From an uncultured Candidatus Saccharibacteria bacterium (lineage in GTDB: Bacteria > Patescibacteriota > Saccharimonadia > Saccharimonadales > JAUPVS01), in assembly GCA_964410185.1 (NCBI GenBank), contig CAYPFM010000002.1:6047-70046 (forward strand): a stretch of DNA of 64,000 bases, in the 5' to 3' direction. The translations under genes and the position numbers were made by a program. This document shows, one piece after another, positions 5,671 to 64,000 of the stretch. The notes under the pieces are model-generated. The model made no database searches, was not told the origin of the DNA, and saw only the letters and a list, made by a program, of their open reading frames with translations. Position 1 is the first letter of the stretch. The number at the start of each line of letters is the position of its first letter.

Positions 5671-5676
5671 ACCTCT

Positions 5677-5682
5677 ATTATA
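5677..5682 (-). promoter_or_regulatory. -10 element placed for a leaderless priA mRNA
   Basis: The minus strand reads TATAAT-AGAGGT-ATG, with exactly 6 nt of spacing. Confidence 0.45.
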
Positions 5683-8342: not shown

Positions 8343-8357
8343 GATAAGCGCTATACT
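8328..8357 (+). promoter_or_regulatory. Promoter of ftsA (leaderless arrangement)
   Basis: TTGACC-N18-TATACT lies inside the map 3' end. Exactly 6 nt (GCTTGC) separate the -10 from ATG 8364. Confidence 0.55.
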
Positions 8358-8363
8358 GCTTGC

Positions 8364-30200: not shown

Positions 30201-33200
30201 CCAGTGGCGTCACCATTGGTGACGGCGGCGTCGCTAACACCTTGCAGTTTGGTAACACTACTGGAGCAGTTACCCAAACAATTAACGTTGGTACTAATGC
30301 GACGGCGAGTTCACAGACCAACGTAACAATCGGTTCGGTAATTGGTGCTAGCACAACAACCTTGCAATCCGGTACAGCCGGAGTGACTGTTAGTACCGGC
30401 GCTGCGAACTCGACTACCGCTTTGCAAGTTAAGCGGGCCGACACAACGACAGCCTTGGTGGTTGATACGTCTAGCAACAAAGTAAACATTGGTACCGGTA
30501 GCGTTCCTGGTATTCCAGGTGCATTCACTCTTGGTGCAACCAGTAGTCCGACTGGACAAGGCGGCCACGCTATGGCCAGCGCCAACATGGCCGGTGGCAA
30601 ATTTGTATACTTATTACCTGGCAATAGCAACACCGTCTACTATGCCGTCCAAAATGCTGATGGCAGCTTGGGGGCCTGGACGGCCGGTCCAACACTTCCA
30701 GCTACTTTGTTTGGTACTATGATGACGATCGATGCTACGAATAACTACATTTACGTTATCGGTGGTTATACGAGCAGCGTTAGTGGTACAGCCGCCGCTA
30801 ACAAGGTCTACTATAGTGCTCTGAACACCTCGACTGGTGCACCGGGCGCTTGGTCAACCAGTGCCAATAACCTGAGCACGGCCGTTGGTCTGGGTGCAGC
30901 ATTTGTAAGTAATGGCAAATTGACCGTTCTTGGTGGCGCTACTCAAGTTGGCGGCTATGGTTGCTCCTTCCAGACCTGCTTATTACCTCTTAGTGGAACC
31001 GAAATTGCTAACACCCAAACGAGTACGCTCACAGCTGGCGCGCCCGGCGCCTTTGCCGGTAGCACCGCCTTGCCACAGGCTTTGGCTAACTTTGGCTTTA
31101 CTACCAATGGATTCACCACTTATGTTTTTGGTGGGCTCGACTCGACCAACACTAGCGCCACGGTTTTCTATACCAACTTTTTATCGGGCGGTGCACTTGG
31201 CAGCTGGACAACGCAACCTATTGGCGAGAACAACGGTGGATTTGGTCAGACTGCTGCGTATAGCTCAACAACTGGATATATATATGACCTCGGTGGAGCA
31301 AAATATTATAATGGCTCAAGCTGGCTATCCTTGCCATCCACACTGCTTCCATTTGGAGCAGCTGATATACCAACGATAGTTGGCTCTTACATGTATCAGA
31401 TGATTGGAACTAGCTCTGGTCTGGGCACCAGCTACAACTATACTCTTATACCACCTGCCACTGGTACAAGCCTGAATGTTAGTGGTAATCAAAATAACTA
31501 CGGCTTTTTTGTCCAACAATCATCCTTGAATGCAACGGCCGCCTTCCAAGTTCAAAATGCAGGCGGTACCGGAATCCTAACAGTCGATACAACCAATGGC
31601 GCGGTAAAGATTAACTCTACAGGTACCGTTGGTACGGTTGAGAAGTTCCGGGTCAACACCCCAACCACCGTTGATAACTTGGCGAATACTATCCTTTCGG
31701 CCAACGCTGCTACTTCAAAGGCTTTGGTGGTTCAGGGTGCTGCCAGCCAGACTGCTAACCTCCTTGAGTTGCAGACCTCAACTGGTAGTAAAGTCGCCAG
31801 CTTTAACAGCAACGGTGTCCTCGACCTGAGTGCCGCCAGTGGTGCCGCTCCAGCCGGCACGGGCATTACCTTGGGCGATAAGATTTCGCTCGGTAGCGCC
31901 GGTTCGTACACCAACTCATATGGTCTTGGCCTCCAAAACAACGCCTTGGTTCTGTACGCGGGCAACAGTGCTTCGGCCACCATCTCGATGCGCGCCGCAG
32001 CCAACGGTGGCCAGTACTCTAACGGCGGCGACAGCTTCACCTTCAACCCAACCACTGGTGCCCAAGTTAATAACATTCAATCGGCCAGCGCCGTTGGCTT
32101 AACGGTTAAAGGCGCTGTTAGTCAGACCGCTAGCTTGCAAGAGTGGCAGGACTCCACTGGCGTGGCCTTAGCTGGGGTTAGTGCCGCCGGTACGCTAACC
32201 TTTAATAACCTCGGGGCCACCACCTCAGCAGTCGACATTACGACGGGTGGGGTAGGGACTGCTTCAATCCTACTTGGAGCAAATGCTGGCTATATTCAAA
32301 AATGGCTTGGTAGTGGCAATGACAACGTCTTGGTAACGGTTGCTCCAAATGCTACAGTCGGGACGCCAACCCAAAGTGGTGGTTTGATCTTGCTCGGCAC
32401 CAGCTACTGGAACGGCTCGGCGGCAGTTAGTGAAAATTTGCAATTACAGTCACAGCGTAATAGTACCAATGCTGGTGATTACTTCCTGCAAGTGAGAGGC
32501 GGTATTAAAATCGATAACCAATACAGTGGTGCAGTTGCTACCGTTGTCCGTGGCGCCAGTGGTCAGGTTGCGCACCTACAAGACTGGCAAGATTACGCAG
32601 GCATTGTCCTGGCTTCCATCGATGCTAGCGGCAACATGACGCTGAACGGCTCGCTGAATATTGCCACAGGCACACTCAAGGTCGCCGGTGTTGATCGCAT
32701 CGATAACAGCGGTAACCTGGTTAATGTGACCTTTAACGGTAATACCATCGGGGTTGGTTACGGTGGTACTGGTAGTACTACCTTCACGGCCAATGGCCTA
32801 TTGTTTGGCAATGGATCTGGCGCCATTCAGGCGACCGCCGCCGGTAACAGTGGCCAGTGTTTAATTGCCACCACTGGTAGCGCGCCAACCTGGGGTTCAT
32901 GCGCACCAGCCTCCGCCGGCAACGTTAACCAGGGCGGCAATAACTTTGGGGCGGCCGTAACACTGGGTGCAACCGACAACTTTGGTATTAATCTGTTGGC
33001 CAACAACACGGCTGTGGCTCGCTTCTCGGCTAGTGGTCAGGCAGTCTTCCAAAACGGTGCCGACTCGGTAACTGCTCTGCAGGTCCAGAACGCTGGCGGC
33101 ACTAGCCTATTCACCATCGACAGCACTAACTCGCGCGTCTACGTTGGTAACCCAACCGCTGATGGCACCGGTACGCTGCTGGTTCTGGATACCAAGAACA

Positions 33201-33824: not shown

Positions 33825-35135
33825 ATGGACAAACACAAACAATTCACCGAAACAATCCATCCCGTAGGCACGGTGCTTGAGCCCGCCTCATCTGACAACA
33901 CGCCCGTACTGCACGAAGCGCCGCCACTAGAATCGTCCAGCCAGGCGGGGGACACCGCACCAGTTGAAGCCAACACGAGCGGTACAGGTCGTATCCAAGC
34001 AATCCTCTCGAACCGATACGCCCTGGGTGGCATAGTTGGCTTTGGCTTGCTCTTGCTGGTGGGCGGCAGCATCTTTGTGGGCCAGCATTATATGAAGAAA
34101 GGGCCGCAAGTTGTTACAGACAGCACGAAGCTCGATCAAAAAACATTGCTGATTGACTCCGATAAACACAGCGTTGGTGTTGTCACCACCACAGGGCCGG
34201 ACGGCTTAGAGGTCCAGGCTACTGTTTCGGCCACGCCACAAGACTCGGCCAATATTAGGATGGGGCTCATCAAGGGCACCGATCCGAGTATTTTGTTTGA
34301 AGATAGTCAAAAGAATAGCTGGCAGGTTTTGGCGGCCAGCGGTTCATTCCAAATTATTCAAGGCACCCAAGCACGAGCTAAACTCGATGACAAAGCCCTG
34401 TCGCTGACCAACGCCCTGAACGTTGGCAGTGATGCCACAGTCACCGGAACAACTTCGCTGAACGGCAGCACTAACATCGGTAAAGACGGCAGCTCCTTGC
34501 TGACCATCCAGGGCACCAAAGTGGCGATTCCGAATAATCTCAACTTTGCCAACAACACGTTTGTGATTGAGGGCAGCAAGGGTAACGTGGCGGTTGGCGC
34601 GGCCTCTGCCAGTGGCTACAAACTACTCGTTGCCGGTAGCATTAAGTCCAACTCCAATATCTACGCCGACGGCCAGGTACTGGCCGGAGCGGGAAGTGCC
34701 AAGAACCCGAGTTTTGCCTTTAATAACAATACCAACACCGGTATTTATGAGGTTGCCCTGAATGTGGTGGGCGTATCAGCGGCCGGCTCTCAGGTTCTGC
34801 AGGTTCAGCCCGGTGTGGTCTTCACTGTTAATGGTGCCAACATCGAAGCTGATGGCTACTTGCGCGCTGGTCGAGGTGGTTCAAATCCCTTCTTCCAGAT
34901 CATGCGTTATACTGGGACACTCGATGGCTCGGGTAGTGCGACGGTGGCGACCGGCCTTGGCACTGGCAACACCCGAGTCCTCTCGGTCCAAGCTTTTTAC
35001 AGAGGGAATGGTAACGAGGCACTGCCACTTAATATCGACGCCGTTAACGGTAGTAGCGTGGTAATTTCGGGCGGAATCCCCGGACGACAATACCGTACAG
35101 CAGTTATTTATAGCTCCGACGCCGCCGGCTGGTAG
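33825..35135 (+). CDS. Membrane-anchored tail-fibre-like protein (436 aa)
   Basis: TM is GGIVGFGLLLLVGGSIFVG. The ectodomain shows a fibre-like pattern (SAKNPSFAFNNNTNTGIYE, LLVAGSIKSNSNIYADG) reminiscent of phage tail-fibre repeats. Confidence 0.7.
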   Translation: MDKHKQFTETIHPVGTVLEPASSDNTPVLHEAPPLESSSQAGDTAPVEANTSGTGRIQAILSNRYALGGIVGFGLLLLVGGSIFVGQHYMKKGPQVVTDSTKLDQKTLLIDSDKHSVGVVTTTGPDGLEVQATVSATPQDSANIRMGLIKGTDPSILFEDSQKNSWQVLAASGSFQIIQGTQARAKLDDKALSLTNALNVGSDATVTGTTSLNGSTNIGKDGSSLLTIQGTKVAIPNNLNFANNTFVIEGSKGNVAVGAASASGYKLLVAGSIKSNSNIYADGQVLAGAGSAKNPSFAFNNNTNTGIYEVALNVVGVSAAGSQVLQVQPGVVFTVNGANIEADGYLRAGRGGSNPFFQIMRYTGTLDGSGSATVATGLGTGNTRVLSVQAFYRGNGNEALPLNIDAVNGSSVVISGGIPGRQYRTAVIYSSDAAGW

Positions 35136-41756: not shown

Positions 41757-43379
41757 ATGGATAATTTTAGACGACCCCCGCGTACAAAACGAGGCTTCGC
41801 CGTAGACGGCATTCTTAAATCTCCCAAAACTCCTGCTTCTGGGGTTGGTGACTTCAAACGGCGACCAATCACCACCACCTCTACCAAGCAAACAGTTGGG
41901 AACTTTAAGCAGACAGAAGGCTTCAAAGCCACTGTCCAGCCCTCGGTGCCTGTTTCGGTATCCCGCAAAACCCCTAAAGTAGCCAGCGAACCGCCGGTTA
42001 AAAAGAAGCGTGGACTCTTCCATCGACGCAAAAAAGACAAACTCCATAAGCCCGTCCATCGCTGGCGGACCCTTGTTAAGCGAACGGCTATTATTTTATT
42101 TGTCCTGATGTTTGTTGGGGGCGGTTTGGTAGGCGCCAAGGCCTACATGAAGTCCCGCAAGGTCCTTAAGGGAGGTGGTTCAGCCCCATCTTTGCAGGCC
42201 AATGTTGCCCCAGCCTTGCTCAAAGGCGAAGGCGACGGCCGTATTAATATTCTGCTACTTGGACGAGGTGGTGCCGGCCACGATGGACCTGATTTAACAG
42301 ATACGATTATTGTGGCTAGTGTCGACCCGGTTCACCACGAAGCCGCTCTGATGAGCATCCCGCGCGACCTTTGGATCAAACCGACCGGTGGCTATAGTTA
42401 CACCAAGATTAACTCCATATATGCGAATGCTAAATATGCCGTCCAGAATGGTAAAAAGATTCCGAACCAACAGCAGGCCGCCGATCAGGCAGGTGAGGAC
42501 GCTATCGAAAAGACCATCGAAGATACATTCGGTATCCCGATTCACTATCACGTCATTGTCGACTTCGAGGCCTTCCGCAAAGCCATCGACACGGTTGGCG
42601 GCGTTGATATTAATGTCAAAACAGCCTTAGTTGATCCAACTGTTGCTTGGGAAAATAACTGGAAGGCCACCATCGCGCCAGTTGGCCAAAACCATATGAA
42701 CGGCAAAACAGCCTTGCTCTATGCTCGTTCTCGTCATGGTAGTGCCCGTGGTGACTTTGACCGGAGTGAACGCCAACGCGAGATTATGATTGCTCTCAAG
42801 GAAAAGGTCTTTACCCTCGGTACCTTCAGTAACCCCGTTAAAATTTCGCAGCTACTGGACGCCTTTGGCGACCACGTGCAAACAAACTTTGGCAGCAGCG
42901 AAGTGAAGCGCCTATACGCCATCGCCAAAGATATTCCGTCTGCCAAAGTCACGTCAGTAGGTTTGGCCGATCCGCCGAATGACTACATCACGACGGGAAT
43001 GGTGAATGGGCAGTCGGTGGTGATTCCAAAGGCTGGCATCGGCAATTATGACGCGATTAAGAGTTACGTACGCAACACCCTCAAGGATAGCTACCTACGT
43101 GATGAGAATGCGAGCATCGTTATTCTAAATGGAACCAATAAGCCCGGCTTGGCAACCACGCGGGCCACCGAGCTGAAGTCATTTGGCTACAATGTTACGA
43201 CGGTCGGCGATGCTCCAACCAAAACCTACACCCAGACGCTGCTTATTGATAGGCGAAGCGGTGCCAAGAAGTATACCCAGCACTACTTAGAGAATCGCTT
43301 GGGAGTCAAAGCCACCACGGCACTTCCAGCTGGTGTTGACGCCGGCACGGCCGATTTTGTGATAGTATTAGGACAATAA
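41757..43379 (+). CDS. LCP (LytR-CpsA-Psr) family cell-envelope phosphotransferase with C-terminal LytR_C domain
   Basis: Basic N-terminus plus a TM. LCP core is INILLLGRGG..PDLTDTIIVASVD..SIPRDLW..RSRHGS..GDFDRSERQ. C-terminus is IVILNGTNKPGLA. Confidence 0.85.
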   Translation: MDNFRRPPRTKRGFAVDGILKSPKTPASGVGDFKRRPITTTSTKQTVGNFKQTEGFKATVQPSVPVSVSRKTPKVASEPPVKKKRGLFHRRKKDKLHKPVHRWRTLVKRTAIILFVLMFVGGGLVGAKAYMKSRKVLKGGGSAPSLQANVAPALLKGEGDGRINILLLGRGGAGHDGPDLTDTIIVASVDPVHHEAALMSIPRDLWIKPTGGYSYTKINSIYANAKYAVQNGKKIPNQQQAADQAGEDAIEKTIEDTFGIPIHYHVIVDFEAFRKAIDTVGGVDINVKTALVDPTVAWENNWKATIAPVGQNHMNGKTALLYARSRHGSARGDFDRSERQREIMIALKEKVFTLGTFSNPVKISQLLDAFGDHVQTNFGSSEVKRLYAIAKDIPSAKVTSVGLADPPNDYITTGMVNGQSVVIPKAGIGNYDAIKSYVRNTLKDSYLRDENASIVILNGTNKPGLATTRATELKSFGYNVTTVGDAPTKTYTQTLLIDRRSGAKKYTQHYLENRLGVKATTALPAGVDAGTADFVIVLGQ

Positions 43380-49512: not shown

Positions 49513-49518
49513 TAGAAT
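49513..49518 (+). promoter_or_regulatory. -10 element placed for a leaderless frr mRNA
   Basis: TAGAAT-AAAAGC-ATG (N6). The spacer is the same as at msrA. Confidence 0.45.
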
Positions 49519-49524
49519 AAAAGC

Positions 49525-50088
49525 ATGAATCCAAACGATGTTATCACGCAAGCCAAGTCCAAGTTCAACGCTACAGTTACACACTTCGAAGAAGAGTTAA
49601 AGAAATTAAGAACCGGCCGTGCTCACGGCGGAATGCTCGACAATATTACGGTTGAGGCCTACGGCACGCCAATGCCAATGAATCAGGTGGCCAACGTCAC
49701 CGCTCCCGAAGCGCAGTTATTGCAAGTGACGCCGTTTGACCCCTCAAACTTAGCCGCCATTAGCGCCGCTATTCGCGACAACCAAAGTTTGGGCATGAAT
49801 CCGAGCGATGATGGTCATGTCATCCGCATCTCCGTGCCCGCACTAACCGAGGAGCGCCGCCGCGAAATTACCAAGCAGGTTGGCAGTAAGCTCGAAGAGT
49901 GCATGATTGCCTTGCGGGGCACCCGTCACGAAACCCTCGACATGTTCAACCAAGCCAAAAAGGATAAAGATTTAGGTGAAGACGAAGTCAAGCGTTTGAA
50001 CGCTCAGGTCGAAGACGCCATGGGGCAGGCTAAGGCCAAGGCAGAAGCCGCCGCCAAAGCTAAAGAACACGAAATAATGACTGTCTAG
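49525..50088 (+). CDS. frr: Ribosome recycling factor
   Basis: LKKLRTGRAHGGMLDNITVEAYG..IRISVPALTEERRRE. Confidence 0.93.
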   Translation: MNPNDVITQAKSKFNATVTHFEEELKKLRTGRAHGGMLDNITVEAYGTPMPMNQVANVTAPEAQLLQVTPFDPSNLAAISAAIRDNQSLGMNPSDDGHVIRISVPALTEERRREITKQVGSKLEECMIALRGTRHETLDMFNQAKKDKDLGEDEVKRLNAQVEDAMGQAKAKAEAAAKAKEHEIMTV

Positions 50089-52838: not shown

Positions 52839-53606
52839 ATGAGTAAACTAGTCGTAAAAAAATTCAGTTCCGCCCTGGTTACCAACCGCGAGGGCATCGA
52901 CCACACGGCCATTAAGAGTTATGTGGCCGGCATGGCGGACAGTTACTACTGGGGTGGTGATGGTTTGATTATCATCACTTCTGGCGCCAAGGTTGCCGGG
53001 CGGGCGCGTGCCGAGGCGGTTTATGGTCGCGAAGCCGCCAAAAAAATGACCTCACAGCAGCTCTCGACGATTGGGGCGACAGCCATATTTAATGCTTGGG
53101 AAGCAGCCTTTGAGGGCCAGGGTATTCTGTCCGCCAGCGTGGCGGTCACACACCGCCAGTTGGCTGGCCGGTCACTGTGGGGCCGATTGTCGAACCGCCG
53201 TGAAAAGAGTGTCTTCACCGAGATGATTCATAACAACATTGCTTCGGGCGTGCCGGTAAACATCAATGAGTCAGACGGTACCAGCATTGCCGAACTCTTT
53301 AAGGAAAACGACGGCCTGGGTTGTCACGTAGCCATCGCGGCGGACGCCGACGAGTACCAGATGTTTACCAAAAATGGTGGGCTGGTGGACGAAGATGGTC
53401 AGCTGGTTGGAGAGATTAATCCCGACAATATCGACTGGGCCCGTGGTCTCGTCGCCAGCCGCGACATCAGTGCTACCGGCACCGGCGGCTTTTTGGCCAA
53501 AATTGAGGCCGGCTGGGAAGCTGCCCAGGCTGGTATCGCTACCAGCATCGCTGCTCCCAACGAAGATATGACAGGCCAGCAGGTCACCCGCTTTGTGGTA
53601 GGATAA
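52839..53606 (+). CDS. Amino-acid kinase family protein, glutamate 5-kinase (ProB)-like, no PUA domain
   Basis: VVKKFSSALVT, IIITSGAKVAGR, PVNINESD and GTGGFLAKIEAG parallel ProB motifs (VVKLGTS, IVTSGAIAAGR, PVINEND, GTGGMSTK). GGAG Shine-Dalgarno lies before ATG 52839. Confidence 0.7.
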   Translation: MSKLVVKKFSSALVTNREGIDHTAIKSYVAGMADSYYWGGDGLIIITSGAKVAGRARAEAVYGREAAKKMTSQQLSTIGATAIFNAWEAAFEGQGILSASVAVTHRQLAGRSLWGRLSNRREKSVFTEMIHNNIASGVPVNINESDGTSIAELFKENDGLGCHVAIAADADEYQMFTKNGGLVDEDGQLVGEINPDNIDWARGLVASRDISATGTGGFLAKIEAGWEAAQAGIATSIAAPNEDMTGQQVTRFVVG

Positions 53607-53610
53607 GGGC

Positions 53611-54861
53611 ATGAAAGTATCCCAATTGTTTACCAAAACCCGCAAAGACGCTCCCGCCGATGAGGAAGCCCGTAACGCCCAACTGTTAATTCAGGCTGGC
53701 TTTATTCACAAAGAGATGGCTGGCGTTTACGCGTTCTTGCCGCTTGGTAAGAGGGTGCTCGAAAACATTACCCAGATTGTCCGCGAAGAAATGGATGCCA
53801 TGGGCGCCCAAGAAGTGCAGATGACAGTACTGCAGCCCAAGGACATTTGGGAAAAAACCGACCGTTGGGATGACAAAAAGGTCGACAACTGGTTCAAGAC
53901 CAAACTGGTCAACGGCACCGAGCTTGGTGTTGGTCTGACGCACGAGGAGCCAATCGTCGACGCCCTCAAAGATTACGTCGACTCCTACAAGGACTTACCA
54001 CTCTTCGTTTACCAGATTCAAACCAAATTCCGCAACGAAAAACGAGCCAAGAGCGGCTTGTTGCGCGGCCGCGAATTCACCATGAAAGACATGTACTCGC
54101 TGGCTCGCAGCCAAGAGGAACACGCCGAACTTTACGAAAAAGCCGCCAAGGTCTATACCAAGGTTTACGAACGGCTGGGCTTGGGCGATAGCACCTATCG
54201 TACCTACGCTGACGGGGGTATTTTTACCGACAAGTTTAGCGATGAGTACCAAACCATCAGTCCAGTCGGCGAAGACACCATTTATGTAGACGAAGCCAAG
54301 AAAATTGCCATTAACGAAGAGATTTACACCCCCGAAAACCTCGCCAAAGTCGGCCTCAAAAAAGCAGATTTGGTTCAGAAGAAAGCCGTCGAAGTAGGGA
54401 ATATCTTCCCGCTGGAAAGCAAATACACCGACGCGCTCGATGTCTATTACACCGACGAAAATGGCGAAAAGCAATCGATAATTATGGGCTGCTACGGTAT
54501 TGGCATTAGTCGCTTAATGGGCGTCATTGCCGAGCATTTTTCTGACGACAAAGGTCTGGTCTGGCCCGAAAACATCGCGCCGGCTAAGGTTTACCTGGCC
54601 CGCCTGGGCGAGGACGAAACGGTTGTTAAGGCCGCCGACCAGCTCTATAAGGATTTGCAAACAGCCGGGATTGCGGTACTCTATGATGACCGCGATGTGC
54701 GGGCTGGCGAAAAGTTCGCCGACGCCGATTTGATCGGCCTTCCATATCGTATCGTGGTTAGCGCTAAGTCGCTCGAAAATGAACAAGTTGAACTCAAAAA
54801 GCGAACCAGCCAGGAGGTGACATTACTGGCGGCCAGCGAAGTCGTAGCAAGCCTAAAATAA
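53611..54861 (+). CDS. proS: Prolyl-tRNA synthetase, bacterial-like but lacking the INS editing domain (416 aa)
   Basis: The N-terminus SQLF.KT.KD.P.DEEA.N.QLLIQAGFI..MAGVY..LPLG is bacterial ProRS-like. Motif 2 is FRNE.R...GLLRGREF, motif 3 is GCYGIGISRL. Only ~40 aa occupy the position where INS normally sits. Confidence 0.9.
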   Translation: MKVSQLFTKTRKDAPADEEARNAQLLIQAGFIHKEMAGVYAFLPLGKRVLENITQIVREEMDAMGAQEVQMTVLQPKDIWEKTDRWDDKKVDNWFKTKLVNGTELGVGLTHEEPIVDALKDYVDSYKDLPLFVYQIQTKFRNEKRAKSGLLRGREFTMKDMYSLARSQEEHAELYEKAAKVYTKVYERLGLGDSTYRTYADGGIFTDKFSDEYQTISPVGEDTIYVDEAKKIAINEEIYTPENLAKVGLKKADLVQKKAVEVGNIFPLESKYTDALDVYYTDENGEKQSIIMGCYGIGISRLMGVIAEHFSDDKGLVWPENIAPAKVYLARLGEDETVVKAADQLYKDLQTAGIAVLYDDRDVRAGEKFADADLIGLPYRIVVSAKSLENEQVELKKRTSQEVTLLAASEVVASLK

Positions 54862-57460: not shown

Positions 57461-57477
57461 TCCTGTATGATGAGAGC

Positions 57478-57792
57478 ATGAAAGCAACCTTCAACAATCA
57501 AACCATCGCCGAGGCTGACAAAGCCGATTTAATTTACATCGAAGGGAACTGGTATTTCCCACCAGCTGCCGTGAAACAGGAGTTACTCGAAAAGAGTGAT
57601 ACCCCGTATACCTGTCCCTGGAAAGGCGTCTGCCAATACTTTAACGTTGTGGTCGGTGACCAAACTGCCAAAGACTGCGCTTGGTCTTACCCCGAGCCGC
57701 TCGAAACAGCCATCGAAATCGTCAAAAACAGCTCCGGCAAAGACTTCAGTAACTACGTCGCGTTCTACCAGCAAGTCACCGTCGGCGAATAA
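57478..57792 (+). CDS. DUF427 domain-containing protein
   Basis: IYIEGNWYFPPAAV...CPWKGVCQYFNV matches the DUF427 pattern as I recall it. Confidence 0.7.
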   Translation: MKATFNNQTIAEADKADLIYIEGNWYFPPAAVKQELLEKSDTPYTCPWKGVCQYFNVVVGDQTAKDCAWSYPEPLETAIEIVKNSSGKDFSNYVAFYQQVTVGE

Positions 57793-58593: not shown

Positions 58594-58697
58594 CAATACC
58601 TAAATCAGTCCCGGTCTCTCTAAACCACTCAACCGCCTCGCAAGGGGCGGTTGTTTTATCTATGGTACATTTCCGACTGCACCTATCCTGCAATCCA

Positions 58698-58877: not shown

Positions 58878-58883
58878 TATACT
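58878..58883 (+). promoter_or_regulatory. -10 element placed for a leaderless msrA mRNA
   Basis: TATACT-AAAAGC-ATG (N6). Confidence 0.45.
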
Positions 58884-58889
58884 AAAAGC

Positions 58890-59375
58890 ATGAATCAAGA
58901 AGCGATTTTCGCCGCGGGCTGTTTTTGGGGAGTGCAATTTTACTTTGATCAAATCCCTGGTGTTACGCACACCGAAGTTGGCTACACCGGCGGCCACACC
59001 CAGAACCCAACCTACGAAGAAGTTTGCACGCATACTACCGGCCATGCCGAAGCCGTCCTGGTTGGTTTTGATCCCAGCCAAGTCAGCTACCAAACCTTGC
59101 TCAAACATTTTTTTCGTATGCACGACCCAACCCAGTTGAATCGCCAGGGTCCAGACATTGGTGATAGCTACCGCAGCACCATTTTTTACTTTAGTGACGA
59201 ACAAAAGGCGCAGGCCGAAAAGGCGAAAGCCGAAGCCCAAAAGAACTTCACAGAACCGATTGTTACTCAGATCGTCAGGCCCGATGTTTTTTACCCAGCC
59301 GAGGACTACCACCAAAAGTATGCCGAACGGACCGGGCGGGGAATGTGCCACATTCCGTACCAATCTGTTAGCTAA
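58890..59375 (+). CDS. msrA: Peptide-methionine (S)-S-oxide reductase MsrA
   Basis: Catalytic GCFWGVQ, plus GYTGG and HDPTQLNRQGPDIG..YRS. Confidence 0.93.
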   Translation: MNQEAIFAAGCFWGVQFYFDQIPGVTHTEVGYTGGHTQNPTYEEVCTHTTGHAEAVLVGFDPSQVSYQTLLKHFFRMHDPTQLNRQGPDIGDSYRSTIFYFSDEQKAQAEKAKAEAQKNFTEPIVTQIVRPDVFYPAEDYHQKYAERTGRGMCHIPYQSVS

Positions 59376-59378
59376 CTG

Positions 59379-59387
59379 TGCTAAAGT
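59379..59387 (+). promoter_or_regulatory. Extended -10 placed for a leaderless heliorhodopsin mRNA
   Basis: TGcTAAAGT-AGAGGC-ATG (N6), located just after the msrA stop. Confidence 0.4.
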
Positions 59388-59393
59388 AGAGGC

Positions 59394-60299
59394 ATGGCAA
59401 AAAAATCTACTACCAAAAAACCTGTTAAGAAATCAGTCAAATCAGCTGCGTCAACCAGCAAGACCAGTAAGGCCACGAAGGCTGTGCAGCCTGCCAAGGT
59501 CGCCACGAAGGTAAAGGTCAAAAAGCCGATTACTTTCGCTAGCCTCAATAAATGGAATCTTGTGATGGCCGCGTTGCACTTTATCCAGGGTGTGGCCGTG
59601 GTTATTCTCAGCACCAACGCCAGCTTCCCAGTCACCACCAGCTACCTCACACTCGATACGCTTGCTTCCAAGAGCGGCAGTCCAGTTTTGGTGTCGGCTA
59701 GTCGACACCTTGCCGATATAAACCTGGCCTACCTCGTGGCGGCCTTTTTCTTTATATCCGCTGCAGCCCATCTGTTTATCGCCACTGTTTATCGTAAGAC
59801 CTACGAAGCTGACCTCAAGCGTGGTGTTAACAAGGCACGTTGGTTTGAATACAGCATCAGTGCCAGCATTATGATGATCGCCATCGCCATGTTGAGCGGT
59901 GTCTACGATGTATCCAGTTTATTGATGATCTTCGCACTCGACTTCGTTATGAACATGATGGGACTAGTTATGGAAGTGCACAACCAGACCACCAAAAAGA
60001 CCAGCTGGCTGAGCTACATTATTGGTTGTATTGCCGGCATCGTGCCATGGATTGTCTTTGCTATCTACGTAGCTGGCGCTCGCAACTACGGCAGTGGCCA
60101 GATTCCAAGCTTCGTCTATTGGATCTACTTGAGTATGTTCATCTTCTTCAGTAGCTTTGCCGTTAATATGTTCTTGCAGTATCGCAAGATTGGTAAGTGG
60201 GCCGACTACCTGTACGGCGAACGCGTATACATGATCTTGAGTTTAGTCGCTAAGTCGCTGCTCGCCTGGCAGGTCTTCTTTGGAGCCTTGCGACCGTAA
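59394..60299 (+). CDS. Heliorhodopsin with ~45-aa Lys-rich N-terminal extension
   Basis: Seven TM helices. It matches remembered HeR-48C12 blocks: ALHFIQ (H23 region), AAAHLF (H80), RWFEYSISASIMMIAIA (counterion Glu), GCIAGIVPWIV, FFSSFAVNMFLQY and GERVYMILSLVAKSLLAWQVF (Schiff-base Lys). Confidence 0.85.
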   Translation: MAKKSTTKKPVKKSVKSAASTSKTSKATKAVQPAKVATKVKVKKPITFASLNKWNLVMAALHFIQGVAVVILSTNASFPVTTSYLTLDTLASKSGSPVLVSASRHLADINLAYLVAAFFFISAAAHLFIATVYRKTYEADLKRGVNKARWFEYSISASIMMIAIAMLSGVYDVSSLLMIFALDFVMNMMGLVMEVHNQTTKKTSWLSYIIGCIAGIVPWIVFAIYVAGARNYGSGQIPSFVYWIYLSMFIFFSSFAVNMFLQYRKIGKWADYLYGERVYMILSLVAKSLLAWQVFFGALRP

Positions 60300-60307
60300 G
60301 CACTGAT

Positions 60308-60931
60308 ATGAAGCATGTCATCTTTGACTTCGACGGCACGCTGGTAGACAGTTTGCCGGTAGTGATCGAGATCTTCCACCAGGTGGTGCCAGATTTTCCT
60401 TTGCCCGAAACCGAGCTGGCCAAGCTACGCGAAATGCCGCCGCGCGAGATTCTTAAGTACAGTGGCATCCCATACTGGCGACTGCCGAAGCTGTTACTTC
60501 AGGGCAAACGCCTCCTGGGACAGCACTTAGACGAACTCAAAGTCTTTCCGGGGATTGATGATGTCGTCAAAAGCCTCCATCAGGCGGGTTACCAAATCTC
60601 GGTGGTAAGTTCCAATAGCGAAGAAAACATTCGTAATGTCTTAAAGCGGGAAGGGATTGAGGCCTATTTTGCCGGTGTCTACGGTAACGTCGGGCTCTTT
60701 AACAAAACGCGCGCCTTCAAGGTGGTACTCAAAGACCAGCAGGCCACCGTCAAAGATGCTATTTACATCGGTGACGAGGTTCGTGACATCGAAGCTGCCC
60801 ACAAGGGCAATATCCCTGTTATCTCGGTCACCTGGGGCTACAACGGTGAAAAAATCTTAACCAAGTACAAGCCAACCTACTTGGCGCACACTCCCCAAGA
60901 GATGCTAAAAATTATTCAGGAAGCCGCCTAA
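60308..60931 (+). CDS. HAD-superfamily hydrolase (phosphoglycolate phosphatase-like)
   Basis: Motif I is FDFDGTLVDS, motif II VVSSNS, motif IV GDEVRDIEAA. Confidence 0.85.
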   Translation: MKHVIFDFDGTLVDSLPVVIEIFHQVVPDFPLPETELAKLREMPPREILKYSGIPYWRLPKLLLQGKRLLGQHLDELKVFPGIDDVVKSLHQAGYQISVVSSNSEENIRNVLKREGIEAYFAGVYGNVGLFNKTRAFKVVLKDQQATVKDAIYIGDEVRDIEAAHKGNIPVISVTWGYNGEKILTKYKPTYLAHTPQEMLKIIQEAA

Positions 60932-60933
60932 CC

Positions 60934-61629
60934 GTGCGACTACATCGTTTCTACACCGGTGCCGACTTGTATCTAGAGCACTATGTTGAACTTACCGACA
61001 AACGTCTGCTCGAACAATGGAACAAAGTCTTGCGCTTTCGCCCCGGCCAAGAAGTCATTCTATTTGATGGCCAAGCCCACGAGCGCCTGTATGTATTAAA
61101 TGAACTTTCCAAAAGTGTCGCCAAGCTAGAGCTGATAACTGACTTTGAACGCCGGTTGCCGAGCCGCAACGTCTACTTGTTTTGGAGCCTGCTTAAAAAA
61201 GATAAAAACGACTGGGTTTTGCAGAAGGCGACCGAGTTGGGGGTCAGCCACTTCGTCCCGCTGCTGGCCGAACGTTCCGAGAAAACTGGCTTCAACAACG
61301 AGCGGGCCGAAAAAATCGTCATGGAAGCCGCCGAGCAGTGTGGCCGCAGCGATTTGCCGTCGGTTCGCCAGCCGGTATTGCTGCAGACCGCTCTCCACGA
61401 ATTTAGCGCCAAGATTCCGCTCTTCGTCTGTGAACAGCATGAGCTCACCAAGCCCAAAACTCCCAACTATAAAGAGGTGGGTGTCTTGATTGGTCCAGAA
61501 GGTGGTTGGAGCGACAAAGAGAAGCAGCTCTTCCTGACCCAAGAAGTCGGCCGTCTGCCTCTGGGAGACTTCACCCTGCGCGCCGAAACCGCCGCCGTTG
61601 TGGCCAGCGCCAAACTGTTGCAAACTTAA
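60934..61629 (+). CDS. rsmE: 16S rRNA (uracil1498-N3)-methyltransferase RsmE
   Basis: MRLHRFY N-terminus with a PUA-like domain. SPOUT C-terminus is GPEGGWSDKE...LGDFTLRAETAA. Confidence 0.85.
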   Translation: MRLHRFYTGADLYLEHYVELTDKRLLEQWNKVLRFRPGQEVILFDGQAHERLYVLNELSKSVAKLELITDFERRLPSRNVYLFWSLLKKDKNDWVLQKATELGVSHFVPLLAERSEKTGFNNERAEKIVMEAAEQCGRSDLPSVRQPVLLQTALHEFSAKIPLFVCEQHELTKPKTPNYKEVGVLIGPEGGWSDKEKQLFLTQEVGRLPLGDFTLRAETAAVVASAKLLQT

Positions 61630-63414: not shown

Positions 63415-63442
63415 TCATCAAAATATGATATAGTTTGCTCTA

Positions 63443-64000
63443 ATGAACCGTTTGAGCACGAGTCCCAACCATCGTAGTCCAGCCCGCAAAGTGCTGCCAT
63501 TTGCGGCGTTTTGCCTCGGTGCTGGTGCGTTGGCAGGTGTTTACGGCAGCTTGAGGGGAGCGCAGTCGACACACCTCCAAGGCACGGTTGTAGCGCCCGA
63601 CTGCACTCGGCCATCTCTGACGGATAGCCTGTCAGCACTCGATAGCAATCAAGACGCGGTTATCCGACTACGTTACCAAGAAGTTCAGGTAGAGATTTGT
63701 GAAGCTGCCTACAAAGGTGCCGCCAATTTGATCAAAAACTATCAAGCCAGCGATGGCCAGCCAACCAGTAGCCAGCGGAAAGAGGAAGCTCGAGACTTAA
63801 CGCGACCTGGCCTGTATGAAGTGACCGTGAGCCAGCGCGACAATACCAAAGCAGTCATGGCCGAATTCGGCACCAATCCCGACGGCACGCCAAACCTAAG
63901 TGACCTCGATTCACTGACCATCTGGCGAGCACAGCCAGGAGCCAGTGCTCCAGATGCAACCGGTCAGGGCATGACCGTTTTGTATCACGATCGTCAGCTG
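63443..64000 (+). CDS. Hypothetical exported/anchored protein, paralogue of 61657-62370 (3' end off-window)
   Basis: The ATG at 63443 opens a frame with no stop to the window edge, which is why it is absent from the ORF track. N-terminal hydrophobic segment is LPFAAFCLGAGALAGV. It shares EIC.AAYKGAANLIKNYQ with the lipoprotein. Confidence 0.5.
   Translation, partial: MNRLSTSPNHRSPARKVLPFAAFCLGAGALAGVYGSLRGAQSTHLQGTVVAPDCTRPSLTDSLSALDSNQDAVIRLRYQEVQVEICEAAYKGAANLIKNYQASDGQPTSSQRKEEARDLTRPGLYEVTVSQRDNTKAVMAEFGTNPDGTPNLSDLDSLTIWRAQPGASAPDATGQGMTVLYHDRQL

What the first reader, a model, noticed from the sequence alone, without database searches (positions are those of the whole stretch)
59379..60299. 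Heliorhodopsin with a histone-H1-like Lys-rich N-terminal tail, clustered with msrA, a HAD phosphatase and rsmE
The 301-aa ORF aligns block for block with heliorhodopsin as I remember HeR-48C12. The matching blocks are ALHFIQ, AAAHLF, RWFEYSISASIMM (counterion Glu), GCIAGIVPWI, FFSSFAVNMFLQY and GERVYMILSLVAKSLLAWQ (retinal Lys). Ahead of helix A there is a ~45-aa extension, MAKKSTTKKPVKKSVKSAASTSKTSKATKAVQPAKVATKVKVKKP, that canonical heliorhodopsins lack. Heliorhodopsins have an inverted topology with a cytoplasmic N-terminus, so this polycationic tail would face the cytoplasm. There it could tether nucleic acid, ribosomes or an acidic partner, which would be an unexplored output mode for a photoreceptor whose function is still debated. 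The gene lies 18 bp after msrA (oxidative protein repair) and 8 bp before a HAD hydrolase. That spacing suggests a light-linked stress operon. No retinal or carotenoid biosynthesis gene is in the window.
Basis: partly seen in the sequence, partly recalled or inferred. Interest (0 to 1): 0.72.

Follow-up and report, generated by a model that had tools for sequence, protein, structure and literature searches.

The report
Heliorhodopsin with lysine-rich cytoplasmic tail
This gene encodes a genuine light-sensing membrane protein (heliorhodopsin) of an uncultured ultra-small Saccharibacteria bacterium; its unusual floppy, positively charged tail is real, under selection and typical of its whole clade, but what the tail does is still unknown, and the proposed "stress operon" is weakly supported.

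Summary
ORF 59394-60299 (+), 301 aa, is a full-length heliorhodopsin: Pfam PF18761 E=1.5e-95, NCBIfam HeR equivalog 323 bits against a cut-off of 100, 50% identical to TaHeR, and an AF2 model with TM 0.90 to 6is6/7u55. The counterion Glu (E152), Schiff-base Lys (K287) and both signature His are in place.

The 45-residue tail (15 Lys, no Asp/Glu) is translated:
- An extended -10 box (TGcTAAAGT) lies 6 nt before the ATG, the layout of a leaderless mRNA. About 17 of 21 HeR-family gene starts in Saccharibacteria loci share it.
- Tail dN/dS is 0.14-0.17, against 0.01-0.02 for the core.

The tail is not unique. Most close Saccharimonadales HeRs carry acid-free K/T/S/A tails of 11-95 aa, and AF2 predicts disorder. 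The likeliest role, inferred and not shown, is a charge-based tether to anionic lipid or nucleic acid.

The msrA-HeR "stress operon" is weak. Each gene has its own -10 element, relatives have extra genes inserted between them, and the synteny is lineage-limited. HeR-HAD-rsmE is the tighter unit.

Side finding: about 40% of the nearest HeR cluster representatives lack the retinal Lys, and many keep the tail.

Verdict: a known protein kind with an undescribed clade-wide tail variant; moderate interest.

The parts
59379..59387 (+). Extended -10 promoter element TGcTAAAGT. It is followed by a 6-nt spacer (59388-59393) and then the ATG, so the predicted transcription start is at or next to the A of the ATG (leaderless mRNA).
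   Evidence: Sequence. The pattern TGNTANNNT-N6-ATG occurs 4 times in the window against 1.2 expected. The same arrangement sits upstream of about 17 of 21 HeR or HeR-like starts in Saccharibacteria loci, despite different upstream genes.
59394..60299 (+). Heliorhodopsin gene, 301 aa plus stop codon.
   Evidence: PF18761, E=1.5e-95, profile 1-242/242; NF038020, 322.7 bits, cut-off 100; TaHeR 6is6, E=1.5e-74; AF2 model; Foldseek TM 0.90 to TaHeR.
59394..59528 (+). Coding region of the Lys-rich N-terminal tail (residues 1-45; 15 K, 0 D/E). It is predicted to be disordered and cytoplasmic.
   Evidence: composition; pLDDT about 50, no secondary structure; dN/dS 0.14-0.17; clade-wide conservation of composition; no DNA tandem repeat; no Pfam or PDB match.
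59529..60296 (+). 7-TM heliorhodopsin core (residues 46-301). Helices: A 48-72, B 111-130, C 147-167, D 173-198, E 205-232, F 239-263, G 272-299. The HeR-typical beta-hairpin in ECL1 spans residues 78-109.
   Evidence: DSSP on the AF2 model; structure matches.
59847..59849 (+). Codon GAA for E152, the Schiff-base counterion. It aligns to E108 of TaHeR and E107 of 48C12.
   Evidence: the 7clj E108D mutant differs from 6is6 at exactly this aligned residue; invariant in 81 close homologs.
60252..60254 (+). Codon AAG for K287, the retinal Schiff-base lysine in the SLVAK motif. It aligns to K241 of 48C12.
58890..59375 (+). msrA (peptide methionine-S-sulfoxide reductase). It has its own TATACT-N6-ATG element at 58878-58892.
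60308..60931 (+). HAD-IA family phosphatase, substrate unknown. It starts 8 nt after HeR with no -10 element of its own, so it is probably co-transcribed with HeR.
   Evidence: phosphoglycolate-phosphatase models far below their cut-offs; only the HAD-IA subfamily model passes; the 8-nt spacing is conserved in L048, L049, L050.
60934..61629 (+). rsmE-family 16S rRNA methyltransferase, starting 2 nt after HAD.
58630..58653 (+). Terminator-like hairpin (10 bp stem, 7 GC pairs, T-rich tail) after the DUF308 gene. It probably ends the upstream transcription unit.
   Evidence: The intergenic region that follows is AT-rich (GC 0.31).

Best explanation
**Identity (shown by homology, key residues and predicted fold).** The gene encodes a canonical, retinal-binding heliorhodopsin of an uncultured Saccharimonadales (Patescibacteria/CPR) bacterium. 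Like characterised bacterial and archaeal HeRs, it is most likely a slow-photocycle sensor or regulator and not an ion pump. Because the window holds no retinal pathway, and published Saccharibacteria genomes also lack one, the chromophore is presumably scavenged.

**Expression (inferred from sequence).** The gene has its own extended -10 promoter, placed so that the mRNA starts at the ATG (leaderless). The downstream HAD-IA phosphatase and rsmE probably ride on the same transcript. msrA has its own similar element.

**Tail (properties shown, role inferred).** The 45-residue N-terminal tail is translated, under purifying selection, predicted to be disordered and cytoplasmic, and carries about +15 charge with no acidic residue. 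Across the clade its composition is conserved (about 34% K, 33% S+T, 13% A, K far above R, essentially no D/E). Its sequence and length vary widely (about 5 to 95 aa). That pattern is the signature of a region that works through bulk charge. My best guess is that it tethers the receptor electrostatically to a cytoplasmic polyanion, either the anionic lipid surface or nucleic acid/ribosomes. It does not look like a folded domain or a specific docking motif.

**Link to light.** Lys-less (retinal-less) relatives keep the same tail, so this role is probably not strictly coupled to photochemistry.

**Confidence by step.** HeR identity about 0.97; tail translated and selected about 0.9; own leaderless promoter about 0.75; polyanion-tether mechanism about 0.35.
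For: **Identity**
- Pfam PF18761 E=1.5e-95, full length.
- NCBIfam HeR equivalog 322.7 bits against a cut-off of 100.
- phmmer against PDB: TaHeR 1.5e-74 and 48C12 4.5e-50, with E152/K287/H62 aligned to E107/K241/H23 of 48C12.
- H62, H126, E152, S283 and K287 are invariant in 81 close homologs.
- AF2 mean pLDDT 87.8 with 7 TM helices and the ECL1 hairpin. Foldseek gives TM 0.89-0.90 and rmsd 2.1-2.5 A to TaHeR.

**Taxon**
- Named homologs and 20 genome loci are Saccharimonadales or Saccharibacteria.

**Tail is real**
- Conserved MAKKS.../MATTTKK... starts.
- The -10 element lies 6-7 nt from the ATG in about 17 of 21 HeR-family starts.
- MAKKSTTKK in L045 differs from the window by 6 synonymous and 0 non-synonymous changes.
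- dN/dS is 0.142, 0.150 and 0.170 in three independent pairs, against 0.024, 0.011 and 0.019 for the core.

**Charge-based constraint**
- 113 tails have K 34.2%, R 2.2% and D+E 0.4%. Of 70 long tails, 62 have no acidic residue, although K to E is a single transition.
- There is no DNA tandem repeat and no Pfam or PDB match for the tail.
- The tail has pLDDT about 50 and is modelled as coil.

**Cytoplasmic side**
- K+R counts are 24 on the inside and 3 on the outside.
- HeR N-in topology is established (Pushkarev 2018, as cited in PMC9166423).

**Precedents for Lys-rich low-complexity tails binding polyanions**
- The PAKKA tail of M. smegmatis Ku modulates DNA binding (PMC3553676, abstract).
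- Polybasic membrane "electrostatic switch" regions (PMC10771482, abstract).

**Retinal scavenging**
- PMC9296517.
Against: - No binding partner is shown, and nothing here distinguishes lipid from nucleic acid.
- Tails as short as MAKKSK occur in close relatives (L004, P0017), so a long tail is not essential to HeR function.
- The dN/dS estimates rest on only 20-44 codons, and dS is partly saturated (0.7-1.3).
- In the L045 lineage the first 28 or so tail residues are more conserved than the core. That hints at some sequence-specific constraint which a pure bulk-charge model does not predict.
- The leaderless promoter is inferred from sequence geometry only. The generic promoter scan found no -35/-10 pair there.
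Confidence: 0.55

Rival explanations
1. The tail is mainly a biogenesis or expression device. It would act as an exaggerated positive-inside signal that locks the N-terminus in the cytoplasm, and its A-rich codons would keep the 5' end of a leaderless mRNA unstructured. On this reading the mature protein's tail has no separate function.
For: The tail is cytoplasmic and basic. Other N-in membrane proteins in these genomes also have basic N-termini: the LCP protein 41757-43379, sortase-like proteins and a protease-like protein. The mRNA is predicted to be leaderless, and the first ~28 nt are largely unpaired in the MFE fold.
Against: Without the tail the core already has 9 inside against 3 outside K+R. 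TaHeR and 48C12 insert correctly without a tail. Tails reach 95 aa, far beyond any topogenic need. Other leaderless genes in the window (msrA, ftsA, RRF, DUF427) have no Lys-rich start. The tail-coding RNA is no less structured than shuffles (z = -0.70). Selection acts on the peptide: changes are synonymous and dN/dS is about 0.15.
Confidence: 0.2
2. The tail is the light-output module, tethering nucleic acid or ribosomes in a light-dependent way. msrA-HeR-HAD would form a light-linked photo-oxidative stress operon.
For: The composition resembles H1-like DNA-binding tails. msrA lies within about 2 kb upstream of the HeR-family gene in 12 of 19 Saccharibacteria loci, and once near an archaeal HeR (L022). 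Published work proposes an oxidative-stress role for HeRs in CPR and monoderms (PMC9166423, PMC8612252). There is no terminator between msrA and HeR. The best, sub-threshold HAD hits are to phosphoglycolate phosphatase, an enzyme linked to oxidative DNA-damage repair.
Against: HeR and msrA each have their own -10 element. Genes of 175-500 aa are inserted between them in L001, L002, L015, L049 and L050. Opposite-strand genes intervene in L006, L007 and L010, and msrA is absent in L004. The whole greA...rsmE block is syntenic, so the adjacency may simply be inherited. rsmE in the same unit is a housekeeping gene. Lys-less relatives keep both the tail and the msrA adjacency (L028, L045), so neither depends on light. 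msrA and HAD are not among the ten conserved HeR neighbour groups in PMC11109279.
Confidence: 0.12
3. The tail is a specific docking site for a protein partner, or a substrate for regulatory modification of its Ser/Thr/Lys residues (an electrostatic switch). This would be analogous to the reported binding of HeR to glutamine synthetase, photolyase or ABC transporters.
For: The N-terminal nonapeptide MAKKSTTKK recurs between proteins with only 28% core identity. The first 28 or so tail residues are nearly invariant within the L045 lineage at 56% core identity. S+T make up about 33% of the tail. HeR-partner regulation is documented (PMC11109279 and references in it).
Against: Most of the tail diverges quickly in sequence and length, with indels even between 90%-identical proteins. 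No conserved partner gene co-occurs apart from HAD. No kinase or acetyltransferase is in the neighbourhood.
Confidence: 0.1
4. The tail is functionless low-complexity sequence, a tolerated expansion, or an annotation artefact caused by a start codon called too far upstream.
For: Length is hypervariable and the composition is low-complexity. Some database entries have obviously over-extended starts, such as P0048, P0131 and P0164.
Against: dN/dS is well below 1 in three pairs. Acidic residues are almost entirely excluded. The only in-frame alternative starts are GTG at codon 31, which would still leave a basic tail, and codons 57/58, which lie inside helix A. The promoter geometry points to the ATG at 59394. 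There is no tandem DNA repeat.
Confidence: 0.05

Closest known systems
TaHeR (Thermoplasmatales archaeon heliorhodopsin; PDB 6is6, 7u55, 7clj)
   Same: About 50% identity over the whole 7-TM core. The AF2 model superposes at TM 0.89-0.90 and rmsd 2.1-2.5 A. The counterion Glu, SxxxK lysine and both His are conserved, and the ECL1 beta-hairpin is present. Both organisms lack a retinal pathway (PMC9296517).
   Different: TaHeR has only about 10 residues before helix A and no Lys-rich tail. It is archaeal, whereas this protein is from a CPR bacterium.
HeR 48C12 (freshwater actinobacterial heliorhodopsin; PDB 6su3, 6uh3)
   Same: Same family and fold (E=4.5e-50; TM 0.84-0.87). H23/H80/E107/K241 correspond to H62/H126/E152/K287.
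   Different: About 37% identity and no N-terminal extension.
Saccharimonadia heliorhodopsins surveyed by Chiriac et al. 2022 (PMC9166423)
   Same: Same lineage and same SLVAK retinal motif. That paper counts 80 HeRs in Saccharimonadia and suggests a link to oxidative-stress protection.
   Different: The paper does not mention the Lys-rich tail, the leaderless promoter or Lys-less derivatives.
N-terminal fusion variants of HeR: MORN-HeR, Znf-HeR and ntv1-10 (Bulzu et al. 2021, PMC8612252)
   Same: These are cytoplasmic N-terminal additions to a HeR core, interpreted as possible output or interaction modules.
   Different: They are folded domains (MORN repeats, Zn ribbon). The L017/L018 Thermoplasmatales loci here show the CxxC ribbon. 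This tail has no domain hit, no Cys, and is predicted to be disordered. I could not access their Table S8, so I cannot say whether a Lys-rich type is among ntv2-10.
Lys-rich low-complexity nucleic-acid-binding tails (histone H1 C-terminal domain; PAKKA tail of mycobacterial Ku, PMC3553676; HupB C-terminus, from general knowledge)
   Same: Acid-free, Lys far above Arg, with an Ala/Pro/Ser/Thr matrix, intrinsic disorder and variable length.
   Different: Here the tail is N-terminal and anchored to a 7-TM membrane protein. It is richer in Thr/Ser (33%) and poorer in Ala/Pro than H1 or PAKKA tails. It has no repeat unit, and DNA binding has not been tested.
Lys-less type-1 rhodopsins (Rh-noK, haloarchaeal opsins without Lys, FArhodopsins; PMC10308929)
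   Same: They are relevant to the relatives found here: HeR-family proteins with the Schiff-base Lys replaced, sometimes in tandem with a canonical copy (L007), as described for Rh-noK.
   Different: The window protein itself keeps the Lys. The Lys-less proteins found here belong to the heliorhodopsin family, for which I found no such report.

Membership tests
Heliorhodopsin (Pfam PF18761 / NCBIfam NF038020) | Significant full-length match to the family HMM, above the curated threshold | tested here: met
   PF18761: 319.6 bits (cut-off 26.7), profile 1-242/242. NF038020 equivalog: 322.7 bits (cut-off 100).
Heliorhodopsin (Pfam PF18761 / NCBIfam NF038020) | Schiff-base lysine in helix G within the SxxxK motif | tested here: met
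   S283-L-V-A-K287 aligns to S237...K241 of 48C12 and to the TaHeR lysine. It is invariant in 81 homologs, and a profile alignment agrees.
Heliorhodopsin (Pfam PF18761 / NCBIfam NF038020) | Single Glu counterion in helix C (E107 in 48C12, E108 in TaHeR) and the conserved His pair | tested here: met
   E152 aligns to E107/E108; the 7clj E108D mutant marks the position. H62 aligns to H23 of 48C12. H126 aligns to the conserved helix-B His of 48C12 and TaHeR, which I take to be H80 without having counted its number.
Heliorhodopsin (Pfam PF18761 / NCBIfam NF038020) | 7-TM fold with the long ECL1 beta-hairpin, superposable on solved HeRs | tested here: met
   AF2 gives pLDDT above 90 over the core, with helices A-G and strands at 78-88 and 98-109. 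The ten best Foldseek hits are all HeR structures, with TM 0.84-0.90. Type-1 rhodopsins follow only at E of about 1e-4.
Heliorhodopsin (Pfam PF18761 / NCBIfam NF038020) | Inverted topology (N-terminus cytoplasmic) | tested here: inconclusive
   The positive-inside count agrees: 24 K+R on the predicted inside (9 without the tail) against 3 outside.
Heliorhodopsin (Pfam PF18761 / NCBIfam NF038020) | Binds all-trans retinal, with visible absorbance and a slow photocycle without ion pumping | not testable with these tools
   This needs heterologous expression and spectroscopy.
Domain-fused HeRs (MORN-HeR / Znf-HeR, PMC8612252) | Recognisable folded domain in the N-terminal extension | tested here: not met
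   hmmscan of the tail alone at E<=10 returns no family. phmmer against PDB at E<=10 returns nothing. AF2 models a coil at pLDDT about 50.
Histone-H1-like / bacterial Lys-rich nucleic-acid-binding tails | Acid-free Lys-rich (K far above R) low-complexity disordered composition | tested here: met
   15 K, 0 R and 0 D/E in 47 residues. Clade average: K 34%, R 2%, D+E 0.4%. This shows resemblance in composition only.
Histone-H1-like / bacterial Lys-rich nucleic-acid-binding tails | Demonstrated DNA/RNA binding; short repeat units (PAKKA, KPAA, S/TPKK) | tested here: not met
   No tandem repeat is found at the DNA level, and no S/TPKK or PAKKA unit is present in the sequence. Binding itself cannot be tested here.
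Co-transcribed msrA-HeR-HAD 'stress operon' | A single promoter upstream of msrA, no internal promoter, and adjacency conserved beyond inherited synteny | tested here: not met
   An internal extended -10 sits at leaderless distance before HeR and is conserved in about 17 of 21 HeR-family starts in Saccharibacteria loci. Genes are inserted between msrA and HeR in at least 8 relatives. There is no recurrence in Actinomycetota, Chloroflexota or Thermoplasmatales loci, apart from L022. HeR-HAD adjacency is better conserved, with the 8-nt gap kept in 4 loci.
Lys-less rhodopsin-like proteins (Rh-noK-type) | Replacement of the Schiff-base lysine | tested here: not met
   The window protein has K287. 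The feature is met instead by relatives: L045 X (T), the L007 paralog (R), L028 (V), and 60 of 150 cluster representatives.

The most novel reading that the evidence does not exclude
In Saccharibacteria the heliorhodopsin scaffold plus its polycationic tail may have a primary function that does not need retinal. One possibility is a membrane anchor for nucleoid, RNA or ribosomes, or an organiser of anionic lipid, in these ultra-small cells, with light acting only as an optional modulator in the members that keep the Lys. This would explain three observations. The tail is under selection. Lys-less HeR-family proteins with intact 7-TM cores and the same tail are abundant and appear to have arisen many times. 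One such protein occupies the very same msrA-X-rsmE slot (L045).
Probability: 0.18. Interest if true: 0.75.

Novelty: new variant of a known kind. Interest (0 to 1): 0.5.

Why it matters
Heliorhodopsin function remains debated. Reported roles are all protein-partner regulation (glutamine synthetase, photolyase, ABC transporter) or, most recently, carotenoid antenna binding.

A clade-wide, selected, disordered polycationic tail on the cytoplasmic side gives a concrete handle for experiments. A tail peptide can be used directly in lipid, nucleic-acid and proteome pull-downs, and tail-less natural variants exist as controls.

The Lys-less relatives that keep the tail suggest part of the family's role in CPR bacteria may be independent of light. 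That would change how HeR gene counts in metagenomes are read, since they are often taken as "photoreceptor potential".

The leaderless-promoter geometry is also practically useful for start-codon calling in Saccharibacteria genomes.

If the tail turns out to be only a biogenesis aid, the finding reduces to one more CPR heliorhodopsin.

Tried and rejected
- **Domain or structure match for the tail.** Pfam at E<=10 and PDB phmmer at E<=10 returned nothing.
- **DNA tandem repeats in the tail.** None found, so a slippage-repeat origin is not evident.
- **RNA structure in the tail-coding region.** z = -0.70, not distinctive. No Rfam family is found anywhere in the window.
- **Shine-Dalgarno reading of GAGG before the ATG.** Rejected. 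The spacing is 1 nt, and the conserved feature across loci is the -10 box, not GAGG.
- **Generic sigma-70 scan.** It found no promoter before HeR, and its site counts equal chance. The bare TANNNT-N6-ATG pattern is not enriched window-wide (20 found against 21.8 expected). The signal lies only in its coincidence with gene starts and its conservation across loci.
- **Lys-rich tails as a proteome-wide habit.** Rejected. Of the 15 ORFs (out of 279) with a Lys-rich acid-poor 30-mer, only 6 are not HeR-family proteins. The sample is HeR-centred, so this is a rough baseline.
- **Word-based homolog search with the L045 Lys-less core.** It returned only 3 proteins, too few to size that family. The representative search was more informative.
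- **PDB entry 9vfc.** This is a 317-aa HeR chain whose core starts near residue 46. I could not display its N-terminus or identify the entry.
- **Literature searches.** Searches for Lys-rich HeR tails, Lys-less HeRs and leaderless mRNAs in Saccharibacteria found nothing relevant in the held library.
- **A second HeR or Lys-less paralog in the window.** None found.
Full report
**1. The observation**

The window holds an ATG-initiated ORF at 59394-60299 on the + strand, encoding 301 aa. The gene starts 18 nt after the stop of the upstream gene and ends 8 nt before the next one. A third gene follows after 2 nt. The finding's start coordinate (59379) is 15 nt upstream of the ATG, and those 15 nt turn out to be informative (section 4).

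**2. What the protein is**

- Pfam gives one hit: Heliorhodopsin PF18761, E=1.5e-95, covering the whole 242-position profile (residues 51-299).
- NCBI's equivalog model for HeR scores 322.7 bits against a cut-off of 100.
- Against solved structures the best match is the Thermoplasmatales HeR (6is6, 7u55; E=1.5e-74, about 50% identity). 48C12 follows at E=4.5e-50.
- In those alignments E152 pairs with E107 of 48C12 and E108 of TaHeR. The E108D mutant entry 7clj differs at exactly that column. K287 pairs with K241 of 48C12, and H62 with H23. H126 pairs with the conserved helix-B His.
- H62, H126, E152, S283 and K287 are invariant in an alignment of 81 close homologs.
- An AlphaFold2 model built on that alignment has mean pLDDT 87.8 and pTM 0.80. 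It shows seven helices plus the long ECL1 beta-hairpin typical of HeRs.
- The ten best Foldseek matches in the PDB are all heliorhodopsins (TM 0.84-0.90 normalised to the target, rmsd 2.1-3.7 A). Type-1 rhodopsins appear only at E of about 1e-4.

Membership in the heliorhodopsin family is therefore met on every criterion that can be tested in silico. Retinal binding and the photocycle remain to be measured.

**3. The organism and the rest of the window**

The named homologs, and the 20 closest genome loci, belong to Candidatus Saccharimonadales or Saccharibacteria (Patescibacteria/CPR). The identical protein occurs in freshwater-type metagenomes.

The window is a tightly packed, mostly co-directional housekeeping region. 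Its genes include IF-2, fmt, priA, ftsA, ftsZ, nrdR, a class II RNR, ileS, parAB, RF1, S2, EF-Ts, RRF, uppS, greA and lysS. It also holds a 4,179-aa FG-GAP/Kelch repeat protein. No blh or crt gene is present.

This fits published work. HeRs are known to be frequent in Saccharimonadia, with 80 instances and the SLVAK motif (PMC9166423). Rhodopsin-bearing Saccharibacteria lack blh and are proposed to scavenge retinal from hosts (PMC9296517).

**4. Is the tail translated?**

Three independent lines say yes.

- **Promoter geometry.** The sequence immediately upstream is TGcTAAAGT-agaggc-ATG. This is an extended -10 box whose 3' end lies 6 nt from the ATG, the geometry of a leaderless mRNA. The same arrangement (TGnTAnnnT or TAnnnT, then 6-7 nt, then ATG) precedes about 17 of 21 HeR or HeR-like starts in Saccharibacteria loci, although the upstream genes differ. 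Exceptions are L012, which uses a Shine-Dalgarno sequence, and L009, L013 and L014, which have other spacings. At least six other genes in the window (ftsA, RRF, an aaRS, DUF427, msrA, ORF 63443) have TAnnnT-N6-ATG at their start, where about one would be expected by chance. That expectation is my own estimate, from roughly 1/64 per start.
- **Conserved N-terminus.** The peptide start is conserved (MAKKSTTKK..., MAKKSPPKK..., MATTTKK...). Between the window and L045, whose cores are only 28% identical, the first nine codons differ by six synonymous and no non-synonymous changes.
- **dN/dS.** Nei-Gojobori estimates for the tail are 0.142, 0.150 and 0.170 in three independent close pairs. The corresponding core values are 0.024, 0.011 and 0.019. 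The tail is thus about 6-13 times less constrained than the core but far from neutral. The caveats are small codon numbers and partly saturated dS.

The only in-frame alternative starts are GTG at codon 31, and codons 57/58 inside helix A.

**5. What kind of tail it is**

*In this protein.* Residues 1-47 carry 15 Lys, no Arg and no acidic residue. AF2 gives pLDDT of about 50 and no secondary structure up to about residue 40. No Pfam family or PDB chain matches the tail. There is no tandem DNA repeat and no unusual RNA structure.

*In the clade.* The tail is not unique. Among the 120 closest homologs (at least 60% identity), most have tails of 11-95 aa of the same type. Pooled composition is K 34.2%, T 19.5%, S 13.6%, A 13.0%, P 4.4%, R 2.2% and D+E 0.4%. 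Of 70 long tails, 62 have no acidic residue, even though K to E is a single transition.

*Further out.* Among 141 representatives of 50%-identity clusters nearest to the core, 63 have N-terminal extensions of at least 25 aa, and about 50 of these are polycationic.

*Variation.* Length and sequence change quickly, with indels even at 90% identity. Close relatives range down to MAKKSK. More distant Saccharibacteria HeRs (L012-L016), Actinomycetota HeRs (MAKE...) and Thermoplasmatales HeRs (none, or a Zn ribbon) lack the tail. Limnocylindrus (Chloroflexota) HeRs have a shorter Ala-rich basic extension.

*Baseline.* Such segments are rare outside the HeR family. Of 15 ORFs (out of 279) with a Lys-rich acid-poor 30-mer, only 6 are not HeR-family proteins, and these are mostly other N-in membrane proteins or ribosomal proteins.

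**6. How it most likely works**

*Shown.* The tail is cytoplasmic by the positive-inside count (24 K+R inside, or 9 without the tail, against 3 outside) and by the established HeR topology. It is translated and selected. The constraint falls on charge and composition, not on sequence.

*Inferred.* This pattern is what one expects of a disordered polycation acting through bulk electrostatics, that is, a tether to a cytoplasmic polyanion. The candidates are the anionic lipid surface and nucleic acid or ribosomes. Precedents exist for both: the Lys-rich PAKKA tail of mycobacterial Ku modulates DNA binding (PMC3553676), and polybasic juxtamembrane "electrostatic switch" regions bind membranes (PMC10771482). 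I cannot discriminate between them here.

*The topology-only explanation is weak.* The core is already biased toward N-in. Solved HeRs manage without a tail, and tails reach 95 aa.

*One observation cuts against a pure bulk-charge model.* In the L045 lineage the first 28 or so tail residues are nearly invariant at 56% core identity, and MAKKSTTKK recurs widely. A short sequence-specific element at the extreme N-terminus is therefore possible.

**7. The operon claim**

*For co-transcription.* A strong terminator-like hairpin follows the DUF308 gene (58630-58653), and there is no terminator between msrA and rsmE. Read-through transcription of msrA-HeR-HAD-rsmE is therefore plausible.

*Against a dedicated operon.*
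- HeR and msrA each have their own -10 element at leaderless distance.
- Short gaps are the rule throughout this window.
- The cluster ends in a housekeeping rRNA methyltransferase.
- The wider greA-lysS-zincin-DUF427-DUF308-msrA-HeR-HAD-rsmE order is conserved only among close Saccharimonadales.
- Within that set, genes of 175-500 aa are inserted between msrA and HeR in L001, L002, L015, L049 and L050. Opposite-strand genes intervene in L006, L007 and L010, and msrA is missing in L004.
- Other phyla show no msrA or HAD adjacency, apart from one short archaeal contig, L022.
- msrA and HAD are not among the ten recurrent HeR neighbour groups reported in PMC11109279.

*The tighter link.* The more persistent link is HeR-HAD. 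The 8-nt gap is kept in the window, L048, L049 and L050. The adjacency is retained in L008 and L011, where HAD identity has fallen to 36-41%. The HAD protein passes only the generic HAD-IA model; phosphoglycolate-phosphatase models score far below their cut-offs.

I therefore rate the "light-linked stress operon" as unproven lineage synteny. HeR-HAD(-rsmE) is the likelier transcription unit.

**8. An unexpected relative class**

Three Saccharibacteria genome loci encode proteins that pass the Pfam HeR threshold but lack the Schiff-base lysine.

- L045:6001-6963 has K to T and E to T. It occupies the same msrA-X-rsmE slot as the window's HeR.
- L007:6858-7778 has K to R and E to D. It lies 60 nt downstream of a canonical HeR.
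- L028:1248-2093 has K to V and follows msrA.

All three carry the same kind of Lys-rich tail, and all have the leaderless -10 geometry.

In the exhaustive representative search, 60 of the 150 nearest clusters lack the lysine. Q, T, S, A, L and other residues replace it, E152 is often lost too, and helix G is full length. Both the MAFFT alignment and a profile alignment show this. Of the Lys-less representatives with a called start, 29 of 61 have tails of at least 25 aa, with 25% Lys.

A rough NJ tree scatters them, with at least 34 state changes. That suggests repeated loss, but the tree is crude and the taxonomy of the representatives is unknown. All 120 closest homologs of the window protein keep the lysine.

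I found no report of Lys-less heliorhodopsins in the searchable literature. Lys-less type-1 rhodopsins are known (PMC10308929). This bears on the finding: whatever the tail does, it is retained when photochemistry is lost.

**9. Comparison with what is known, and novelty**

The protein is a member of the heliorhodopsin family, and of the Saccharimonadia HeRs already surveyed (PMC9166423). N-terminal extensions of HeRs have been catalogued (ntv1-10), but only the MORN and Zn-ribbon types have been interpreted (PMC8612252). I could not check whether a Lys-rich type is in their supplementary table.

The tail resembles H1-like or Ku-type Lys-rich tails in composition only. It lacks their repeat units, and binding is untested.

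I class the finding as a new variant of a known kind: a clade-wide HeR architecture with a selected, disordered polycationic tail, not described in the literature I could search.

**10. Verdict**

| Claim | Verdict |
|---|---|
| Observation | Confirmed |
| Heliorhodopsin call | Right |
| Tail real and translated | Right |
| Lack of retinal genes | Right, and already known for the lineage |
| Tail special to this gene | Overstated; it is a clade trait |
| msrA-HeR-HAD stress operon | Not supported beyond synteny |
| Tail as nucleic-acid output module | Untested |

Interest is moderate (0.5). The gene itself is an ordinary CPR heliorhodopsin. The tail and the Lys-less tail-bearing relatives nevertheless offer a directly testable handle on the unresolved function of this family.

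Noticed in passing
L045:6001-6963; L007:6858-7778; L028:1248-2093; representatives P0128-P0267: Heliorhodopsin-family proteins that lack the Schiff-base lysine (replaced by T, R, V, Q, S, A and others), and often the counterion Glu. Many keep a long Lys-rich tail. One sits in the same msrA-X-rsmE slot as the window's HeR, and one lies in tandem with a canonical HeR. 60 of the 150 nearest 50%-identity cluster representatives are Lys-less. I found no literature report.
   Followed up: partly
window 59379-59396; also 8352-8366, 49513-49527, 53599-53613, 57466-57480, 58878-58892, 63431-63445, 5668-5682 (minus strand): A -10-like hexamer (TAnnnT, often with an upstream TGn) lies exactly 6 nt before the start ATG of many genes. 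This implies widespread leaderless mRNAs in this Saccharimonadales genome. It is useful for start-codon calling; for example, priA probably starts at 5670, not 5697.
   Followed up: partly
window 60299-60308; L048, L049, L050, L008, L011: HeR-HAD adjacency is the best-conserved gene pair around HeR. The 8-nt spacer is identical in four loci, and the adjacency persists at 36-41% HAD identity where the rest of the synteny is gone. The HAD protein passes only the generic HAD-IA model, so its substrate is unknown.
   Followed up: partly
between msrA and HeR in L001:5222-5965, L002:4405-5907, L015:4485-5888, L049:5433-5960, L050:558-1082: This is a variable insertion site. Unrelated hypothetical genes of 175-500 aa, with no Pfam domain and some with a C-terminal TM anchor, are inserted between msrA and HeR in close relatives but not in the window.
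   Followed up: no
window 21215-33754 (+): A giant 4,179-aa ORF made of FG-GAP (13 or more repeats) and Kelch repeats. It is probably a surface or adhesion protein, as is common in episymbiotic CPR bacteria. It is flanked by ORFs with no Pfam hit (20300-21211 and 33825-35135).
   Followed up: partly
window 9614-9997 and 10113-14240 (+): A stand-alone response-regulator receiver, followed by a 1,375-aa protein with a C-terminal HATPase_c domain and N-terminal M26-like, fn3 and GLUG segments. Both are wedged between ftsA (8364-9602) and ftsZ (14615-15916), which is an unusual place for a signalling pair.
   Followed up: no
window 41757-43379 (+): The LytR-CpsA-Psr family protein has a roughly 100-residue basic (K/R/H/P-rich) cytoplasmic N-terminal region. 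It is the only other strongly Lys-rich segment in the window. Its composition is mixed K/R/H and differs from the K/S/T/A tail of HeR.
   Followed up: no
L067-type lineage: L045 X, P0272, P0273: In this Lys-less lineage the first 28 or so tail residues (MAKK[ST]TTKKS.VGKTSKAS.SRKSAASK) are almost unchanged at 56% core identity. The start of the tail is thus more conserved than the membrane core, which hints at a sequence-specific N-terminal element.
   Followed up: no
PDB 9vfc: A solved heliorhodopsin chain of 317 aa (8 chains in the entry) whose HeR core starts only at about residue 41-46. It may carry an N-terminal extension or a fusion. I could not display its N-terminus or identify the source.
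   Followed up: no
L017:5255-6175, L018:4785-5717: Thermoplasmatales HeRs with an N-terminal CPNC...CPKC Zn-ribbon extension. These are the Znf-HeR type described by Bulzu et al. 2021. They were recovered here independently as the nearest non-CPR relatives.
   Followed up: no
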